This document shows positions 2,272-25,896 of a DNA stretch of 25,896 nucleotides, piece by piece. The stretch's first letter is position 1. Every line of letters starts with the position of its first letter. The position numbers were made by a program, and so were the translations under genes. The notes beneath the pieces were generated by a model. That model was not told where the DNA came from. It saw nothing but the letters and a program-made list of their open reading frames with translations, and searched no databases. This DNA comes from a virus, in UHGV virus genome UHGV-0344337. One strand, 5' to 3'.

Positions 2272-2484
2272 TCATGAAAGGTAAACATTGGCAGCTGAAG
2301 GGCCACGCAGACCATTTATCCGGCAAAATTCCACGCGTAATCCGGTGGTAATTTCTTCTGCATCGCGGAGATTGAGCGCTGAAACATGAAGCTGGACATC
2401 GATACGACCATCGGATGGGGTGATAAGACCCTTGCCGCTTTTGCCGTCAAAGGTTTTGACAATTCCTGTCATTTTACGGGACAA
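2272..2484 (-). CDS. cspF: Cold-shock-like protein CspF (CspA family)
   Basis: 70-aa [24 protein letters not shown]...; CspA-family fold signature with degenerate RNP motifs; divergent from cspB as in the K-12 Qin locus. Confidence 0.85.
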
Positions 2485-2784: not shown

Positions 2785-3000
2785 ATGTCAAATAAAATGA
2801 CTGGTTTAGTAAAATGGTTTAACGCTGATAAAGGTTTCGGCTTTATTTCTCCTGTTGATGGTAGTAAAGATGTGTTTGTGCATTTTTCTGCGATTCAGAA
2901 TGATAATTATCGAACCTTATTTGAAGGTCAAAAGGTTACCTTCTCTATAGAGAGTGGTGCTAAAGGTCCTGCAGCAGCAAATGTCATCATTACTGATTAA
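2785..3000 (+). CDS. cspB: Cold-shock protein CspB (CspA family)
   Basis: 71-aa [41 protein letters not shown]... with RNP1 (KGFGFI) and RNP2 (VFVHF) motifs; AAGGAATG start context; long upstream leader. Confidence 0.9.
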
Positions 3001-3363: not shown

Positions 3364-3534
3364 TCAGGCTACAGCTTTAAGATTTGTCTGGAATACTTTG
3401 TTGCAATGAGGGCAGATCAAAAGGGCACCTTTTTGTACTCTTGAAAAACTGTGTTCTGACTCTTGGGTGCAGTTTGGGCAGGAACATTTAACGAGATAAT
3501 TACGGCGTGATTTTGAGTCTTTACGTTCTGACAT
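3364..3534 (-). CDS. Small zinc-ribbon protein (CxCxxC...CxxC), hypothetical
   Basis: Minus-strand ORF; preferred start at the internal Met (MSERKDSK..., 56 aa) with AGGA 7 nt upstream; a longer 73-aa form would start at 3585. Motif KCSCPNC...(19 aa)...CPHC. Confidence 0.45.
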   Translation of the reverse strand: MSERKDSKSRRNYLVKCSCPNCTQESEHSFSRVQKGALLICPHCNKVFQTNLKAVA

Positions 3535-3753
3535 AGGCTTTTCCTGTATAAATGGCCGTATACAGTACACTAAATATGAAAACATTTCTCGTATTATTAT
3601 TTTATATATGACTTTCTTTCAAAATAATTACTCACATTTTTAATGTGTATGTTTCTTTAGCGCCGTTGAGAACAGCGTGTGCTGTCAAAACTACCCCGTA
3701 GACTCCGATCTTTTCAAACATATTGCACCATCCGTGTACATCGGGGTGAGGAT

Positions 3754-5522: not shown

Positions 5523-5672
5523 GTGTTCTGGTTTGTTACAAAATTATCTGAAGCAGTCATTGTTATAATTTTATTATTTGTACCTCTTGAGATTTCCTTG
5601 TTGGTTTTTCTCTCTGATATTTTTTTTCGGACCATTCTGCCCAAGGGCTAACTTCTTCAAAAGGTAATAATG

Positions 5673-5885
5673 ATGTCTAACAAAATGACTGGTTTAGTGA
5701 AATGGTTTAACCCTGAAAAAGGTTTTGGTTTCATCACGCCGAAAGATGGTAGCAAAGATGTGTTTGTGCATTTCTCAGCTATTCAGAGCAACGATTTCAA
5801 AACGTTAACTGAGAATCAGGAAGTCGAATTTGGTATTGAGAACGGACCTAAAGGTCCTGCAGCTGTTCATGTAGTGGCACTTTGA
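5673..5885 (+). CDS. cspI: Cold-shock protein CspI (CspA family)
   Basis: 70 aa [38 protein letters not shown]... with RNP1/RNP2 motifs; tandem ATGATG start at 5670/5673. Confidence 0.9.
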
Positions 5886-6559: not shown

Positions 6560-6733
6560 ATGAACATTGAAGAGTTAAAAACAAAAACAGAAGCAGATAT
6601 TTCTGAATATATAACAAAAAAAATCATTGAGCTTAAGAAAAAGACCGGGAAAGAAGTTACCAGTATCCAGTTTACTGCACGGGAAAAAATGACTGGTCTT
6701 GAAAGCTATGATATCAAGATTGATTTAATCTAG
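6560..6733 (+). CDS. gnsB: GnsB (Gns family, 57 aa)
   Basis: MNIEELKTKTEADISEYITKKIIELKKKTGKEVTSIQFTAREKMTGLESYDIKIDLI; GAGGAA RBS at 6551-6556; terminator downstream. Confidence 0.8.
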   Translation: MNIEELKTKTEADISEYITKKIIELKKKTGKEVTSIQFTAREKMTGLESYDIKIDLI

Positions 6734-6796
6734 CATGTTTATAGTATTAGCATCAATTTCTCATCAGATGCTATTCAACAATACAAATTACCCATA

Positions 6797-6818
6797 AACC
6801 TCGTTTTTACGGGGTTTT
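6797..6818 (+). terminator. Rho-independent terminator after gnsB
   Basis: AACCTCG-ttttta-CGGGGTT hairpin (one G-U pair) followed by a T-run. Confidence 0.5.
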
Positions 6819-7028
6819 GTTATATTTAAACATTACCGAATAGATATAAATCTCGATTGTCGATGGTATTGGTTGTGTGACAATACCTAGTCTTTCCGGT
6901 ATGCCTGAAGAGAATACAAACGACAGATTATGTAAGGGAAACGCGCTGAAACTTTCACTCTTTCATGCTGAGTGATTTGACGTTATATTTTTAGCCGCAA
7001 GTGAAGAGCAAACGAATGGAGCGACAAA

Positions 7029-7140
7029 ATGCGTAAAGATCAATACACTGATGCCCCCTCCCAGGAGCAGGTTCGTGTAAAAACTATGCTTAATAGCACC
7101 ATTTCGATGGGTTACCCGGATGTTGTAATTGCATGTATAG
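7029..7140 (+). pseudogene. 5' fragment of a small (68-aa) prophage ORF disrupted by IS3
   Basis: ATG 7029 with GGAG 7 nt upstream; reads [37 protein letters not shown], then runs into the IS3 left end and stops after 13 IS-encoded codons. Confidence 0.5.
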
Positions 7141-7179
7141 TGATCTTACCCAGCAATAGTGGACACGCGGCTAAGTGAG
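7141..7179 (+). repeat. IS3 left terminal inverted repeat
   Basis: TGATCTTACCCAGCAATAGTGGACACGCGGCTAAGTGAG; matches the reverse complement of 8360-8398 with a few mismatches. Confidence 0.9.
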
Positions 7180-7205
7180 TAAACTCTCAGTCAGAGGTGA
7201 CTCAC

Positions 7206-7505
7206 ATGACAAAAACAGTATCAACCAGTAAAAAACCCCGTAAACAGCATTCGCCTGAATTTCGCAGTGAAGCCCTGAAGCTTGCTGAACGCATCGGTGT
7301 TACTGCCGCAGCCCGTGAACTCAGCCTGTATGAATCACAGCTCTACAACTGGCGCAGTAAACAGCAAAATCAGCAGACGTCTTCTGAACGTGAACTGGAG
7401 ATGTCTACCGAGATTGCACGTCTCAAACGCCAGCTGGCAGAACGGGATGAAGAGCTGGCTATCCTCCAAAAGGCCGCGACATACTTCGCGAAGCGCCTGA
7501 AATGA
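7206..7505 (+). CDS. insE: IS3 transposase OrfA (InsE)
   Basis: 99 aa [32 protein letters not shown]...; HTH region; overlaps insF by 4 nt as in IS3-family orfA/orfB. Confidence 0.95.
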
Positions 7506-8368
7506 AGTATGTCTTTATTGAAAAACATCAGGCTGAGTTCAGCATCAAAGCAATGTGCCGCGTGCTCCGGGTGGCCCGCAGCGGCTGGTATACGTGGTGT
7601 CAGCGGCGGACAAGGATAAGCACGCGTCAGCAGTTCCGCCAACACTGCGACAGCGTTGTCCTCGCGGCTTTTACCCGGTCAAAACAGCGTTACGGTGCCC
7701 CACGCCTGACGGATGAACTGCGTGCTCAGGGTTACCCCTTTAACGTAAAAACCGTGGCGGCAAGCCTGCGCCGTCAGGGACTGAGGGCAAAGGCCTCCCG
7801 GAAGTTCAGCCCGGTCAGCTACCGCGCACACGGCCTGCCTGTGTCAGAAAATCTGTTGGAGCAGGATTTTTACGCCAGTGGCCCGAACCAGAAGTGGGCA
7901 GGAGACATCACGTACTTACGTACAGATGAAGGCTGGCTGTATCTGGCAGTGGTCATTGACCTGTGGTCACGTGCCGTTATTGGCTGGTCAATGTCGCCAC
8001 GCATGACGGCGCAACTGGCCTGCGATGCCCTGCAGATGGCGCTGTGGCGGCGTAAGAGGCCCCGGAACGTTATCGTTCACACGGACCGTGGAGGCCAGTA
8101 CTGTTCAGCAGATTATCAGGCGCAACTGAAGCGGCATAATCTGCGTGGAAGTATGAGCGCAAAAGGTTGCTGCTACGATAATGCCTGCGTGGAAAGCTTC
8201 TTTCATTCGCTGAAAGTGGAATGTATCCATGGAGAACACTTTATCAGCCGGGAAATAATGCGGGCAACGGTGTTTAATTATATCGAATGTGATTACAATC
8301 GGTGGCGGCGGCACAGTTGGTGTGGCGGCCTCAGTCCGGAACAATTTGAAAACAAGAACCTCGCTTAG
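7502..8368 (+). CDS. insF: IS3 transposase OrfB (InsF), DDE integrase domain
   Basis: 288 aa [22 protein letters not shown]...; DDE-type catalytic core; in the -1 frame relative to insE, the arrangement IS3-family elements express by programmed frameshifting. Confidence 0.95.
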
Positions 8369-8398
8369 GCCTGTGTCCATATTACGTGGGTAGGATCA
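8360..8398 (-). repeat. IS3 right terminal inverted repeat
   Basis: Reverse complement TGATCCTACCCACGTAATATGGACACAGGCCTAAGCGAG; overlaps the 3' end of insF. Confidence 0.9.
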
Positions 8399-8400
8399 TA

Positions 8401-8496
8401 GAACATCAAGTATCTCTGGAAGCATTCAGGGCAATTGAGGCCGCGTTAGTAAAGCACGATAAGAATACGAAGGATTATTCCCTGGTGGTTGACTGA
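8401..8496 (+). pseudogene. 3' fragment of the IS3-disrupted small ORF
   Basis: Joining 7029-7140 to 8402-8496 after removing IS3 and one TAG copy restores an uninterrupted 68-codon frame (...[34 protein letters not shown]). Confidence 0.5.
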
Positions 8497-8532
8497 TCAC
8501 CATAACTGCTAACCATTCTGACCATTTCACAA

Positions 8533-8561
8533 GTGACAGAGTCAATATCGTATTCTGTCAC
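8533..8561. repeat. Perfect 8-bp inverted repeat GTGACAGA / TCTGTCAC with 13-bp spacer
   Basis: Read directly from the sequence; lies in non-coding DNA between the IS3-disrupted ORF and the cos region. Confidence 0.4.
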
Positions 8562-8861
8562 TGTAAGGCTAATACAGTACTGCAATTCAACTACAGCAAT
8601 GCCTCGTATTTAGGTGAATTTACAATATCGTCCAGTTCGGATGCCGGCTGCATTTCTGAAGATAAGGCATTTCGGTTCGCGTATTTTCCCCTCATGCTCG
8701 TCAGTCCTGCGCGTAGTAAGAAACAGGACACTCACACTAATTTGTGTGGGCATGCTGTGATGTCCTTCTGAATTATCCCCATGCCATTATGTAACGCTCT
8801 GTTTCAGATGCTCGTCACGGTTGTCAGGCTGTCGGGTCCTCCCAGTGGGGGTCCCTGCCAC

Positions 8862-8879
8862 GGGGCGGGAGCGTCGCGG
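8862..8879 (+). other. Candidate cosN (cohesive-end site), lambda-like
   Basis: ACGGGGCGGGAGCGTCGCGG resembles lambda cosN (ACGGGGCGGCGACCTCGCGG) including the flanking ACG and CGCGG; the putative 12-nt end GGGCGGGAGCGT starts 196 bp upstream of the Nu1 ATG, matching lambda geometry. Confidence 0.5.
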
Positions 8880-9058
8880 AAAAAGACTAGTTTTTGCATT
8901 TCCATGGCGGCGGCAGCATGTTTGGTAATTTATTGATAATTAAAAGTTATTTCTCTTTTCACCTGTACAATATTTTTTTCTCCCTGTCATTAGACCAGTT
9001 TGCAATTAATTGAAATATATAAATAAACCTGATTTTCACCTGCCAGATGGAGTTGCTT

Positions 9059-24015: not shown

Positions 24016-25896
24016 ATGGGTAAAGGCAGCAGTAAGGGGCATACTCCGCGCGAAGCGAAGGACAACCTGAAGTCCACGCAGTTGCTGAGTGTGATCGATG
24101 CCATCAGCGAAGGGCCGATTGAAGGTCCGGTGGATGGATTAAAAAGCGTGCTGCTGAACAGTACGCCGGTGCTGGACAGTGAGGGGAATACCAATATATT
24201 CGGCGTCACGGTGGTGTTCCGGGCCGGTGAGCAGGAGCAGACACCGCCGGAGGGATTTGAATCCTCCGGCTCCGAGACGGTGCTGGGTACGGAAGTGAAA
24301 TATGACACGCCGATCACCCGCACCATCACGTCGGCAAACATCGACCGTCTGCGCTTTACCTTCGGTGTGCAGGCACTGGTGGAAACCACCTCAAAGGGGG
24401 ACAGGAATCCATCGGAAGTCCGCCTGCTGGTTCAGATACAGCGTAACGGTGGCTGGGTGACGGAAAAAGACATCACCATTAAGGGCAAAACCACCTCGCA
24501 GTATCTGGCCTCGGTGGTGGTGGATAACCTGCCGCCGCGCCCGTTTAATATCCGGATGCGCAGGATGACGCCGGACAGCACCACAGACCAGCTGCAGAAC
24601 AAAACGCTCTGGTCGTCATACACCGAAATCATCGATGTGAAACAGTGCTACCCGAACACGGCACTGGTTGGCGTGCAGGTGGACTCGGAGCAGTTCGGCA
24701 GCCAGCAGGTGAGCCGTAATTATCATCTTCGCGGGCGCATTCTGCAGGTGCCGTCGAACTATAACCCGCAGACGCGGCAATACAGCGGTATCTGGGACGG
24801 AACGTTTAAGCCAGCATACAGCAACAACATGGCCTGGTGTCTGTGGGATATGCTGACCCATCCGCGCTACGGCATGGGGAAACGTCTTGGTGCGGCGGAT
24901 GTGGATAAATGGGCGCTGTATGTCATCGGCCAGAATTGCGACCAGTCAGTGCCGGACGGCTTTGGCGGCACGGAGCCGCGCATCACCTGTAATGCGTACC
25001 TGACCACACAGCGCAAGGCGTGGGATGTGCTCAGTGATTTCTGCTCGGCGATGCGCTGTATGCCGGTATGGAACGGGCAGACGCTGACGTTCGTGCAGGA
25101 CCGACAGTCGGATAAGGTGTGGACCTATAACCGCAGTAATGTGGTGATGCCGGATGATGGCGCGCCGTTCCGCTACAGCTTCAGCGCCCTGAAAGACCGC
25201 CATAATGCCGTTGAGGTGAACTGGATTGACCCGGATAACGGCTGGGAGACGGCGACAGAGCTTGTGGAGGACACGCAGGCCATTGCCCGTTACGGTCGTA
25301 ACGTCACGAAGATGGATGCCTTTGGCTGTACCAGCCGGGGGCAGGCACACCGCGCCGGGCTGTGGCTGATTAAAACGGAGCTGCTGGAAACGCAGACCGT
25401 GGACTTCAGCGTGGGTGCAGAAGGGCTTCGCCATGTACCGGGCGATGTCATTGAAATCTGTGATGATGACTATGCGGGGATCAGCATCGGCGGGCGCGTG
25501 CTGGCGGTGAACAACCAGACGCGGACACTGACGCTCGACCGTGAAATCACGCTGCCATCCTCCGGCACCACGCTGATAAGCCTGGCTGACGGACAGGGGA
25601 ATCCGGTCAGCGTGGAGGTCCAGTCCGTCACCGACGGCGTGAAGGTAAAAGTGAGCCGTGTTCCTGACGGCGTTGCAGAATACAGCGTGTGGGGGCTGAA
25701 GTTGCCAACGTTGCGCCAGCGCCTGTTCCGCTGTGTGAGTATCCGTGAGAACGATGACGGCACGTATGCCATCACTGCCGTGCAGCATGTACCGGAGAAA
25801 GAGGCCATCGTGGATAACGGGGCGCACTTTGACGGCGACCAGAGCGGCACGGTGAATGGTGTCACGCCGCCAGCGGTGCAGCACCTGACTGCCGAA
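24016..25896 (+). CDS. J: Tail tip / central fibre protein gpJ-like, 5' partial (runs off window end)
   Basis: ATG 24016 with AGGA upstream; frame open to the window end (627 codons); N-terminus MGKGSSKGHTPREAKDNLKSTQLLSVIDAISEGPIEGPVDG as recalled for lambda J. Confidence 0.9.
   Translation, partial: MGKGSSKGHTPREAKDNLKSTQLLSVIDAISEGPIEGPVDGLKSVLLNSTPVLDSEGNTNIFGVTVVFRAGEQEQTPPEGFESSGSETVLGTEVKYDTPITRTITSANIDRLRFTFGVQALVETTSKGDRNPSEVRLLVQIQRNGGWVTEKDITIKGKTTSQYLASVVVDNLPPRPFNIRMRRMTPDSTTDQLQNKTLWSSYTEIIDVKQCYPNTALVGVQVDSEQFGSQQVSRNYHLRGRILQVPSNYNPQTRQYSGIWDGTFKPAYSNNMAWCLWDMLTHPRYGMGKRLGAADVDKWALYVIGQNCDQSVPDGFGGTEPRITCNAYLTTQRKAWDVLSDFCSAMRCMPVWNGQTLTFVQDRQSDKVWTYNRSNVVMPDDGAPFRYSFSALKDRHNAVEVNWIDPDNGWETATELVEDTQAIARYGRNVTKMDAFGCTSRGQAHRAGLWLIKTELLETQTVDFSVGAEGLRHVPGDVIEICDDDYAGISIGGRVLAVNNQTRTLTLDREITLPSSGTTLISLADGQGNPVSVEVQSVTDGVKVKVSRVPDGVAEYSVWGLKLPTLRQRLFRCVSIRENDDGTYAITAVQHVPEKEAIVDNGAHFDGDQSGTVNGVTPPAVQHLTAE

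What the first reader, a model, noticed from the sequence alone, without database searches (positions are those of the whole stretch)
7029..8496. Complete IS3 with 3-bp TAG target duplication interrupts a small prophage ORF
A 1258-bp IS3 (insE/insF, 39-bp imperfect inverted repeats) is flanked by direct TAG repeats (7138-7140 and 8399-8401). Removing the IS and one TAG restores a 68-codon ORF with a good RBS. Intact ends and duplication indicate a relatively recent transposition into the accessory region just upstream of cos.
Basis: seen in the sequence. Interest (0 to 1): 0.45.

Follow-up and report, generated by a model that had tools for sequence, protein, structure and literature searches.

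The report
IS3 insertion splitting a prophage ybcW-like gene
A standard, intact copy of the E. coli jumping gene IS3 has landed inside a small phage gene of unknown function (a YbcW homologue) 464 bp before the phage's DNA-packaging site; this is an ordinary transposition event, and the same short stretch has been hit by IS3 many separate times in other E. coli strains.

Summary
Window 7141-8398 is a complete 1258-bp IS3. It is 100% identical to the E. coli B REL606 copy and differs by one synonymous base, plus a variant 3-bp left tip, from K-12 IS3A. It has 39-nt imperfect inverted repeats, insE/insF with the A-AAG frameshift site, and a perfect TAG duplication. Removing the IS and one TAG restores a 68-codon ORF. 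That empty site exists: about 959 complete E. coli genomes have it contiguous (best checked locus 1440/1440 nt, 99.93%). The ORF is a full-length YbcW-family protein (phrog_657, E=1.8e-47; 79% identical to K-12 YbcW), function unknown. The cos cleavage site maps to 8862|8863 from the linear ends of phages cdtI and Tritos, so "just upstream of cos" holds.

This exact junction is absent from 5,426 complete E. coli genomes and occurs on only three metagenome-assembly contigs, which fits a recent, lineage-restricted event. Everything is textbook IS3 biology, so interest is low.

One addition: at least 13 independent IS3 insertions, in both orientations, fall within about 550 bp around this ORF in Qin-like prophages. 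Several carry adjacent deletions of packaging, head and tail genes, as in E. coli B. The region is a recurrent IS3 sink.

The parts
7018..7021 (+). Shine-Dalgarno GGAG, 7 nt upstream of the ATG of the interrupted ORF
   Evidence: Read directly from the sequence
7029..7140 (+). 5' part of the ybcW-like ORF: codons 1-37 plus the first base of codon 38
   Evidence: It is contiguous with 8402-8496 in IS-free alleles.
7029..7178 (+). Chimeric 49-aa ORF created by the insertion: 37 native residues plus 12 residues read from the IS3 left end
   Evidence: This exact protein is found on 3 public contigs.
7138..7140 (.). Left copy of the 3-bp target-site duplication, TAG
7141..8398 (+). Complete IS3, 1258 bp
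   Evidence: 1258/1258 identical to the REL606 copy. It differs from K-12 IS3A at IS position 200 and in the 3-bp left tip.
7141..7179 (+). IS3 left inverted repeat (IRL)
   Evidence: pair I1: 39 nt, 28/39 matching the right repeat
7206..7505 (+). orfA / insE, 99 aa, helix-turn-helix DNA-binding protein
   Evidence: Pfam HTH_Tnp_1, E=5.4e-10; translation
7468..7472 (+). AAAAG -1 programmed frameshift motif. The 0-frame codons are CAA AAG; after slippage the -1 frame runs in phase into orfB.
   Evidence: Identical copies in RefSeq genomes are annotated 'programmed frameshift'.
7502..8368 (+). orfB / insF, 288 aa, DDE (rve) transposase catalytic domain
   Evidence: Pfam rve E=5.1e-28, rve_2, HTH_21; NCBIfam transpos_IS3 339 bits against a cutoff of 160
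8360..8398 (+). IS3 right inverted repeat (IRR)
8399..8401 (.). Right copy of the 3-bp target-site duplication, TAG
8402..8496 (+). 3' part of the ybcW-like ORF: the rest of codon 38 through codon 68 plus the stop. It now has no promoter-proximal start.
8863..8874 (+). Context: predicted cosN cohesive-end sequence GGGCGGGAGCGT, with the nick at 8862|8863, 464 bp downstream of the IS3 right end
   Evidence: The linear genome ends of phages Tritos and cdtI map here. The resemblance to lambda GGGCGGCGACCT is from established knowledge.

Best explanation
A canonical IS3 element transposed into codon 38 (GAA) of a 68-codon ybcW-family gene. That gene lies in the non-essential accessory region between the lysis cassette and cos of a Qin/cdtI-like lambdoid prophage of Escherichia coli.

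**Mechanism (inferred from the known IS3-family pathway).** The OrfAB transposase is made by a -1 frameshift at A-AAG. It excises a copy as a figure-of-eight and then a minicircle. It then inserts that copy by staggered attack on the target, and repair of the 3-nt stagger gives the TAG duplication.

**Consequence (shown by sequence).**
- The gene is split into a 49-aa chimeric N-terminal product and a promoterless 3' remnant.
- The split removes the most conserved C-terminal half, so this is very probably a null allele.
- The phage genome is 1261 bp longer.

**Inferred.**
- The event happened in a lysogen.
- It is evolutionarily recent and lineage-restricted.
- It is neutral or nearly so for both phage and host. 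cos, the terminase genes and the morphogenesis module downstream remain collinear with functional phages.
For: **Anatomy of the IS**
- Length, inverted repeats, duplication, ORFs and frameshift motif all fit IS3.
- It is 100% identical to the REL606 IS3 and differs from K-12 IS3A by one synonymous base.

**Empty site**
- The empty site is contiguous in 959 complete genomes and in two phage records.
- It is annotated there as a 207-nt CDS, WP_000548593.1.

**The interrupted gene**
- YbcW family membership: phrog_657 covers 68/68 residues, there are 1335 homologue clusters, and identity to K-12 YbcW is 54/68.
- The family alignment shows that the invariant E38 and H39 and the invariant C-terminal residues all lie after the break.

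**Position and state of the phage**
- cos maps to 8862|8863.
- The downstream 17 kb is 97.5-97.9% identical and collinear with phages cdtI and Tritos.

**Distribution of the junction**
- It is absent from 5,426 complete E. coli genomes, from GTDB species representatives and from JGI metagenomes.
- It is present on 3 ENA-type assembly contigs, one of which is 100% identical to the window over 6150 bp.

**Mechanism**
- The IS3-family two-step copy-and-paste pathway is described in PMC3299598.
Against: - Nothing contradicts the explanation.
- The source is a short-read metagenome assembly. The interior of the IS could therefore be a consensus of several IS3 copies in the sample, so "100% identical and intact" is safest for the two junctions.
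- "Recent" has no clock. It rests on absence from sampled genomes and on zero divergence.
- Neutrality and prophage inducibility are not tested.
- The many independent IS3 hits nearby mean that the choice of site may not be random.
Confidence: 0.93

Rival explanations
1. The site was not hit at random. The stretch from the gnsB-ybcW spacer to about 130 bp past the ybcW stop is a preferred IS3 target. The cause would be either a structural or nucleoid-protein feature of this AT-rich DNA, or selection favouring IS3 here as a seed for deletions that cripple the prophage. The window would be one more instance of that pattern. This modifies the main explanation rather than replacing it.
For: **Number and spread of events**
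- At least 13 distinct junction positions fall within about 551 bp of empty-site DNA (window-equivalent 6817-7140 plus 8402-8626), in both orientations. They occur in 39 of roughly 1000 genomes carrying this allele, plus the window.

**Expectation (my rough estimate)**
- With a median of about 3 IS3 places per roughly 5-Mb genome, uniform insertion predicts about 0.3 occupied genomes.

**Control**
- A control 700-bp accessory stretch of the same prophage, after rzpQ, has IS3 in only 4 genomes at about 3 positions.

**Associated deletions and other alleles**
- Four events (the REL606 group, PD7, A30, DAX4) have adjacent deletions. In three of these (the REL606 group, PD7, A30) the deletion removes packaging, head and tail genes.
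- One event lies in a diverged, DLP12-type ybcW allele (A30).

**Nucleoid protein lead**
- Hha was reported to bind the ybcW region in K-12 (PMC2408971).
Against: - The target duplications share no consensus (TAG, CTG, TGC, TCT, GAC, TTT).
- No sequence resembling the IS3 ends is present in the target. The best match is 13/25, below the shuffle mean.
- There is no orientation bias.
- The control region is also hit, and IS2 and IS5 occur in the same accessory region in other strains. Simple tolerance of insertions in non-essential AT-rich prophage DNA, together with spread of the prophages, explains much of the pattern.
- The survey could only see insertions within 700 bp of the chosen flanks.
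- Events were counted from distinct junction coordinates, not from a phylogeny.
Confidence: 0.35
2. The insertion is old and vertically inherited or carried by the phage, rather than recent. It appears rare only because its lineage is poorly sampled.
For: - The junction is found on 3 separate assembly contigs.
- IS3 copies are nearly identical everywhere. All copies compared differ by at most 2 nt, so identity says little about age.
Against: - The junction is absent from 5,426 complete E. coli genomes. About 959 of these carry the uninterrupted allele, 349 of them at 99% identity or more.
- The flanks are 99.9% identical to empty alleles.
- The duplication is perfect.
- No full-length IS3 occurs in 50,697 phage records.
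Confidence: 0.08
3. The structure is an artefact: a metagenome assembler threaded an IS3 repeat between two unrelated or adjacent pieces.
For: The source is a k141 short-read assembly, and IS3 is longer than a read.
Against: - A mis-join would not produce a complete IS ending exactly at its termini, flanked by a perfect 3-bp duplication of a sequence present once in the empty site.
- The same chimeric ORF is present on three contigs.
Confidence: 0.02
4. The IS marks a rearrangement: the flanks were not originally adjacent, for example through recombination between two IS3 copies.
For: Other strains do show IS3 here with one flank replaced (REL606, PD7, A30, DAX4).
Against: In the window both flanks join perfectly into the empty-site allele, 1440/1440 nt, with a matching TAG on each side.
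Confidence: 0.01

Closest known systems
IS3 of Escherichia coli (insE/insF; K-12 IS3A-E and the E. coli B copies)
   Same: - 1258 bp with TG...CA ends and 39-nt imperfect inverted repeats.
- orfA/orfB with an A-AAG -1 frameshift site and a 3-bp duplication.
- 1258/1258 identical to the REL606 copy, and 1254/1255 identical to K-12 IS3A over its annotated length.
   Different: Only the location differs. IS position 200 is G, as in REL606, rather than A. This is synonymous (Gln45 of OrfA).
IS3 in the Qin-like prophage of E. coli B REL606, ATCC 8739 and relatives
   Same: - Same prophage type and the same accessory stretch. The left junction is at window-equivalent 8619, about 220 bp of empty-site sequence from this site.
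- The IS is identical.
   Different: - It is in the opposite orientation.
- The ybcW-like ORF is left intact.
- The right flank is replaced by a tail-tip gene fragment, meaning cos, terminase, head and most tail genes are deleted. The window has a simple insertion with everything downstream retained.
ybcW (b0559) of cryptic prophage DLP12, and the homologous stretch near the right end of phage lambda
   Same: - A 68-aa protein, 54/68 identical.
- Same position between the lysis/accessory genes and the small terminase gene.
- Lambda matches the region at 82.6% nucleotide identity.
- Function is unknown in all of them.
   Different: - The window allele belongs to the Qin/cdtI-type module. gnsB lies upstream, the small terminase is of the DUF1441 type, and there is no ybcV or ylcI.
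- The window allele is interrupted.
Other IS3-family insertions in lambdoid prophages (for example IS629 in O157 prophages; from my own knowledge)
   Same: IS3-family elements commonly accumulate in prophage accessory DNA and seed deletions.
   Different: A different element. This was not examined here.

Membership tests
IS3 (IS3 family, IS3 group) | Length of about 1.26 kb with 5'-TG...CA-3' termini and imperfect terminal inverted repeats of about 39 bp | tested here: met
   1258 bp; starts TGATC and ends GATCA; 39-nt inverted repeats with 28/39 matching
IS3 (IS3 family, IS3 group) | Two overlapping ORFs in phases 0 and -1: orfA with a helix-turn-helix domain and orfB with a DDE/rve catalytic domain | tested here: met
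   orfA 7206-7505 matches HTH_Tnp_1. orfB 7502-8368 matches rve, rve_2 and HTH_21. NCBIfam NF033516 transpos_IS3 scores 339 bits against a cutoff of 160.
IS3 (IS3 family, IS3 group) | Slippery A-AAG motif in the orfA/orfB overlap, allowing an OrfAB fusion | tested here: met
   AAAAG at 7468-7472. The 0-frame codons are CAA AAG, and the -1 frame runs into orfB in phase. The frameshifting itself cannot be tested here.
IS3 (IS3 family, IS3 group) | 3-bp direct target duplication | tested here: met
   TAG on both sides, present once in the empty-site alleles. Other IS3 copies at this locus also have 3-bp duplications.
IS3 (IS3 family, IS3 group) | Near-identity to the reference IS3 sequence | tested here: met
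   1258/1258 identical to REL606 and 1254/1255 identical to K-12 IS3A
IS3 (IS3 family, IS3 group) | Transposition through figure-of-eight and minicircle intermediates | not testable with these tools
   Inferred from family knowledge (PMC3299598)
YbcW family (phrog_657) | Full-length similarity to family members | tested here: met
   phrog_657 E=1.8e-47 over 68/68 positions; 1335 homologue clusters; 79% identical to K-12 YbcW
YbcW family (phrog_657) | Conserved position between the lysis/accessory genes and cos plus the small terminase gene of lambdoid phages | tested here: met
   The same order is seen in L001, Tritos and DLP12
YbcW family (phrog_657) | Known fold or biochemical function | tested here: inconclusive
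   No Pfam or NCBIfam model matches and there is no PDB sequence match. The AlphaFold model has pLDDT 64 with three helices, and the best Foldseek match has E=8.9.
Lambda-type cos site (context claim) | Coincides with the ends of linear virion DNA of close relatives | tested here: met
   The Tritos record ends at ...CCTGCCACG and starts at GGGCGGGAGCGT, which maps to window 8862|8863. The cdtI record also starts at window 8863.

The most novel reading that the evidence does not exclude
The roughly 550-bp stretch around the ybcW-like gene, just before cos in Qin/cdtI-type lambdoid prophages, is a genuine IS3 target hot spot. Its basis would be a local DNA or nucleoid-protein feature such as H-NS/Hha-bound AT-rich DNA, not sequence similarity to the IS ends. 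Insertions there would be the recurrent first step by which E. coli converts active prophages into cryptic ones, through IS3-adjacent deletion of cos and the morphogenesis genes, as seen in E. coli B.
Probability: 0.3. Interest if true: 0.4.

Novelty: already known. Interest (0 to 1): 0.12.

Why it matters
**Practical points**
- As an individual event it matters little. It is a textbook IS3 insertion that knocks out a small phage gene of unknown function and leaves the rest of the late region intact.
- Annotators should join the two ORF fragments as ybcW-like::IS3 rather than call a 49-aa hypothetical protein.
- The junction is a lineage marker for the strain in the source metagenomes.

**Wider point**
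- IS3 lands in this stretch repeatedly and independently, and several hits have gone on to delete the packaging and virion genes.
- If that reflects real targeting, it would give a concrete, testable route for prophage domestication in E. coli. It would also give a natural system for studying IS3 target choice, which is poorly defined.

Tried and rejected
**Function of the interrupted protein**
- Pfam and NCBIfam gave no hit.
- A PDB sequence search gave none.
- The AlphaFold2 model built from 32 homologues was low-confidence (pLDDT 64), because the family is narrow (mean column identity 85%). Foldseek against the PDB gave only E=8.9 matches, so no function is assigned.
- The literature on ybcW gives only expression and binding mentions.

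**Source of the window**
- The exact left junction was not found in GTDB representative genomes, in JGI metagenome contigs or in complete E. coli genomes.
- It was found only through an exact look-up of the chimeric 49-aa ORF.

**Orientation bias**
- The first survey showed six nearby IS3 copies, all in the window's orientation. That was an artefact of the query design.
- The mirrored query found 31 genomes with the opposite orientation, so the idea was rejected.

**Targeting by resemblance to the IS ends (known for some IS3-family members)**
- The best match to the first 25 nt of either end is 13/25, below the shuffle mean. Rejected.

**Outward promoter from the IS3 right end driving cos or terminase**
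- The consensus scan shows no junction promoter, and promoter counts are at chance level. Not supported.

**Literature on IS3 at the Qin prophage or on IS3 target specificity**
- Nothing specific was found.
Full report
**1. Observation**

Reading window 6700-8900 and checking by script shows TAG at 7138-7140 and again at 8399-8401. These bracket a 1258-bp element (7141-8398) that begins TGATCTTACC and ends GGTAGGATCA. The repeat finder reports the two ends as a 39-nt inverted repeat (7141-7179 and 8360-8398, 72% complementary), which is 28 of 39 positions.

Inside lie two overlapping ORFs. The first, 7206-7505, encodes 99 aa with a Pfam HTH_Tnp_1 domain. The second, 7502-8368, encodes 288 aa with rve, rve_2 and HTH_21 domains. 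It scores 339 bits on NCBIfam transpos_IS3 against a cutoff of 160. The AAAAG motif at 7468-7472 lies in the overlap. In the orfA frame the codons are CAA AAG, and a -1 slip continues in phase into orfB.

Joining 7029-7140 to 8402-8496 gives a 207-nt ORF of 68 codons, preceded by GGAG 7 nt upstream of the ATG.

**2. Is it IS3, and is it intact?**

The element is 1258/1258 identical to the IS3 copy in the Qin-like prophage of E. coli B REL606. It differs by 1-2 bases from nine other copies compared.

It differs from K-12 IS3A only at IS position 200 and in the first three bases. At those three bases the K-12 copy reads GCC, and its annotation there is 1255 bp long. Position 200 is the third base of Gln45 of OrfA and the change is synonymous.

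Identical copies in RefSeq are annotated as IS3 transposase with a programmed frameshift. All sequence-level defining features of IS3 are met. Activity cannot be tested here.

**3. Were the flanks contiguous before insertion?**

Yes. A 930-nt reconstruction, made by removing the IS and one TAG, matches 959 complete E. coli genomes in one place over at least 80% of its length. Of these, 349 are at least 99% identical.

A 1440-nt reconstruction aligns without a gap, at 99.93% identity, to strain 2014C-4587 (L001). There the ORF is annotated as a 207-nt CDS, WP_000548593.1, which is 67/68 identical to the restored protein. Phages HannyBb and mEp460_ev081 carry the empty site at 99.7% identity. 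The first stated refutation condition therefore fails.

**4. What gene was hit?**

The restored protein matches phrog_657 end to end (E=1.8e-47) and has 1335 homologue clusters. It is 54/68 identical to YbcW (b0559) of K-12 prophage DLP12. Phage annotators call the homologue YbcW, and lambda itself matches the region at 82.6% nucleotide identity. The second refutation condition therefore also fails.

The family is narrow and strongly conserved, with a mean column identity of 85%. The break falls at codon 38, immediately before the invariant E38-H39 and the invariant C-terminal residues. The 49-aa chimeric product (7029-7178) is therefore very probably non-functional.

The function of the family is unknown:
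- No Pfam or NCBIfam model matches.
- No solved relative exists.
- The AlphaFold model has pLDDT 64 with three helices and no credible fold match.
- The only functional note found is that Hha binds and induces ybcW in K-12 (PMC2408971).

**5. Context**

The window is the late region of a lambdoid phage. In order it holds:
- an HNH protein and a Q-like antiterminator;
- a cold-shock gene cluster;
- holin, a DUF1327 protein, lysozyme and a DUF2514/Rz-like protein;
- cspI, ynfN and gnsB;
- the interrupted ORF;
- a DUF1441 small terminase and the large terminase;
- portal, protease/capsid, tape measure and tail assembly genes.

This is the gene order of Qin-type prophages.

The linear genome of phage Tritos ends at ...CCTGCCACG and starts at GGGCGGGAGCGT. 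This maps to window 8862|8863, and the phage cdtI record also starts at window 8863. The 12-mer resembles lambda's cohesive end GGGCGGCGACCT (established knowledge). The IS3 right end is thus 464 bp upstream of cos, so "just upstream of cos" is correct.

The 17 kb from cos onward is 97.5-97.9% identical and collinear with cdtI and Tritos, so nothing downstream appears damaged. The window has no bacterial flank. "Prophage" is therefore an inference, resting on three points:
- IS3 is a chromosomal element.
- The same alleles lie in chromosomes.
- No full-length IS3 occurs in 50,697 phage records.

**6. Age and source**

The exact junction is in none of 5,426 complete E. coli genomes, no GTDB representative genome and no JGI metagenome contig.

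The chimeric 49-aa ORF is on three public assembly contigs. One of them (ENA ERZ27281513 k141_30964) is 100% identical to the window over 6150 bp at the same coordinates. The window therefore comes from a short-read metagenome assembly.

The junctions are secure. A mis-assembly would not create a precise 3-bp duplication of a sequence present once in the empty site. The IS interior, however, could be a consensus of several copies.

The perfect duplication, the undiverged IS, the 99.9% identical flanks and the rarity of the junction all fit a recent, lineage-restricted event. No clock is available.

**7. Mechanism**

Shown by sequence:
- a simple insertion with a 3-bp duplication;
- loss of ORF continuity.

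Inferred from family knowledge (PMC3299598):
- OrfAB is produced by -1 frameshifting.
- It forms a figure-of-eight and then a minicircle.
- The circle integrates by staggered cuts 3 nt apart.

No promoter-like site reads outward from the right end, and promoter and terminator counts are at chance level. There is therefore no evidence that the IS alters expression of cos-proximal genes.

The extra 1261 bp is under 3% of a roughly 46-kb genome, so packaging should tolerate it (inference).

**8. Beyond the finding: a recurrent IS3 sink**

I searched with chimeric flank-plus-IS-end queries in both orientations and on both sides. This revealed other IS3 copies at different positions close by.

| Orientation relative to the window | Strain or group | Window-equivalent position | Target duplication | Other features |
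|---|---|---|---|---|
| Same | A10 | 8406 (5 bp from this site) | not resolved | — |
| Same | B18271 | about 8494 | CTG | — |
| Same | VG1046-3E9 | 8519 | TCT | — |
| Same | XH988 | 8582 | CTG | — |
| Same | STEC276 | 8602 | TGC | — |
| Same | A30 | 8626 | not resolved | Deletion into the terminase gene; diverged ybcW allele |
| Opposite | AST19 | 6817 | TTT | — |
| Opposite | DAX4 | 6883 | not resolved | gnsB deleted |
| Opposite | WCHEC050613 group (13 genomes) | 7105 to 8504 | not resolved | About 135 bp of the ORF deleted |
| Opposite | EC21Z-063 | 8493 | GAC | — |
| Opposite | PD7 | 8552 | not resolved | Deletion to the tail-fibre genes |
| Opposite | REL606 / ATCC 8739 group (16 genomes) | 8619 | not resolved | Deletion to a tail-tip gene |

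With the window, that makes at least 13 distinct events in about 551 bp, in 39 of roughly 1000 genomes with this allele. As a rough yardstick of my own, uniform insertion at about 3 IS3 copies per 5 Mb would predict about 0.3 occupied genomes.

A control 700-bp accessory stretch after rzpQ in the same prophage shows IS3 in only 4 genomes, at about 3 positions. Those positions were inferred from match spans and were not sequence-checked.

I found no orientation bias, no consensus among the duplications and no sequence resembling the IS ends in the target.

Caveats:
- The survey sees only 700 bp from each flank.
- Events are counted by junction coordinate, not by phylogeny.
- The same junction and the same deletion were verified for only two members of the 16-genome group.
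- IS2 and IS5 also sit in this accessory region in some strains. General tolerance of insertions in AT-rich non-essential prophage DNA (GC 0.28-0.46) may therefore explain much of the pattern.

**9. Verdict**

The object is a known element, IS3, inserted in a known though uncharacterised phage gene family (YbcW). It behaves exactly as expected, so novelty is nil and interest is low. The recurrent use of this short stretch by IS3, with follow-on deletions that strip prophages of their packaging and virion genes, is the only aspect that might repay further work.

Noticed in passing
window-equivalent 6817-7140 and 8402-8626; loci L002-L004, L007-L013, L017-L019: At least 13 independent IS3 insertions, in both orientations and with different 3-bp duplications, cluster around the ybcW-like ORF of Qin-type prophages. 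They occur in 39 complete E. coli genomes plus the window. A control 700-bp stretch after rzpQ has IS3 in only 4 genomes.
   Followed up: partly
L012 (REL606), L013 (ATCC 8739), L011 (PD7), L009 (A30), L018 (DAX4), L017 (WCHEC050613): Several of these IS3 copies have one flank replaced. The missing DNA is cos, terminase, head and tail genes in the E. coli B and ATCC 8739 group, in PD7 and in A30. It is gnsB in DAX4 and about 135 bp of the ORF in the WCHEC050613 group. IS3-adjacent deletion looks like a route from an active to a cryptic Qin-type prophage.
   Followed up: partly
window 8862|8863; 8863-8874: The cos cleavage site can be placed from the linear ends of phages Tritos and cdtI. The 12-mer GGGCGGGAGCGT differs from lambda's GGGCGGCGACCT at 4 positions, while the flanking ACG and CGCGG are the same as in lambda.
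   Followed up: yes
phage collection: No full-length IS3 is present in any of 50,697 deposited phage genomes; there are only two partial hits. IS3-bearing versions of these phages are so far seen only in bacterial chromosomes and metagenome contigs.
   Followed up: no
L015 (K-12 MG1655, 315229-316483): K-12 IS3A is annotated as 1255 bp. At the position of the first three bases (TGA) of the canonical left end it reads GCC, so that copy has a damaged or variant left terminus.
   Followed up: no
window 6796-6817 (+); L019: A terminator-like hairpin with a T-run lies just after gnsB. In strain AST19 the reverse-orientation IS3 sits exactly at the 3' edge of this hairpin (window-equivalent 6817).
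   Followed up: no
window 2272-2484 (-), 2785-3000 (+), 3364-3585 (-), about 5670-5885 (+): There are several cold-shock-domain genes (cspF-, cspB- and cspI-like) and a YdfK/YnaE-like zinc-ribbon ORF. They sit between the Q antiterminator and the holin and again after the lysis genes. This is typical of Qin-type prophages. No tRNA genes are present in the window.
   Followed up: no
L003 (strain A10), L017 (WCHEC050613): Other insertion sequences occupy the same accessory region: IS5 between gnsB and the ORF in A10, and IS2 between ynfN and gnsB in WCHEC050613. A10 also shows tandem partial IS3 repeats, which may be an assembly problem.
   Followed up: no
K-12 ybcW (L014 4881-5087); PMC2408971: The nucleoid-associated protein Hha was reported to bind the ybcW region (9.2-fold enrichment) and to induce ybcW 17-fold in K-12 biofilm cells. 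This may be relevant to why the region attracts insertions.
   Followed up: no
window 24946-25884 (-): A 312-aa ORF on the minus strand at the end of the window has no PHROG match. It lies in the region where the tail-tip gene is expected on the plus strand, so it is probably a spurious antisense ORF.
   Followed up: no
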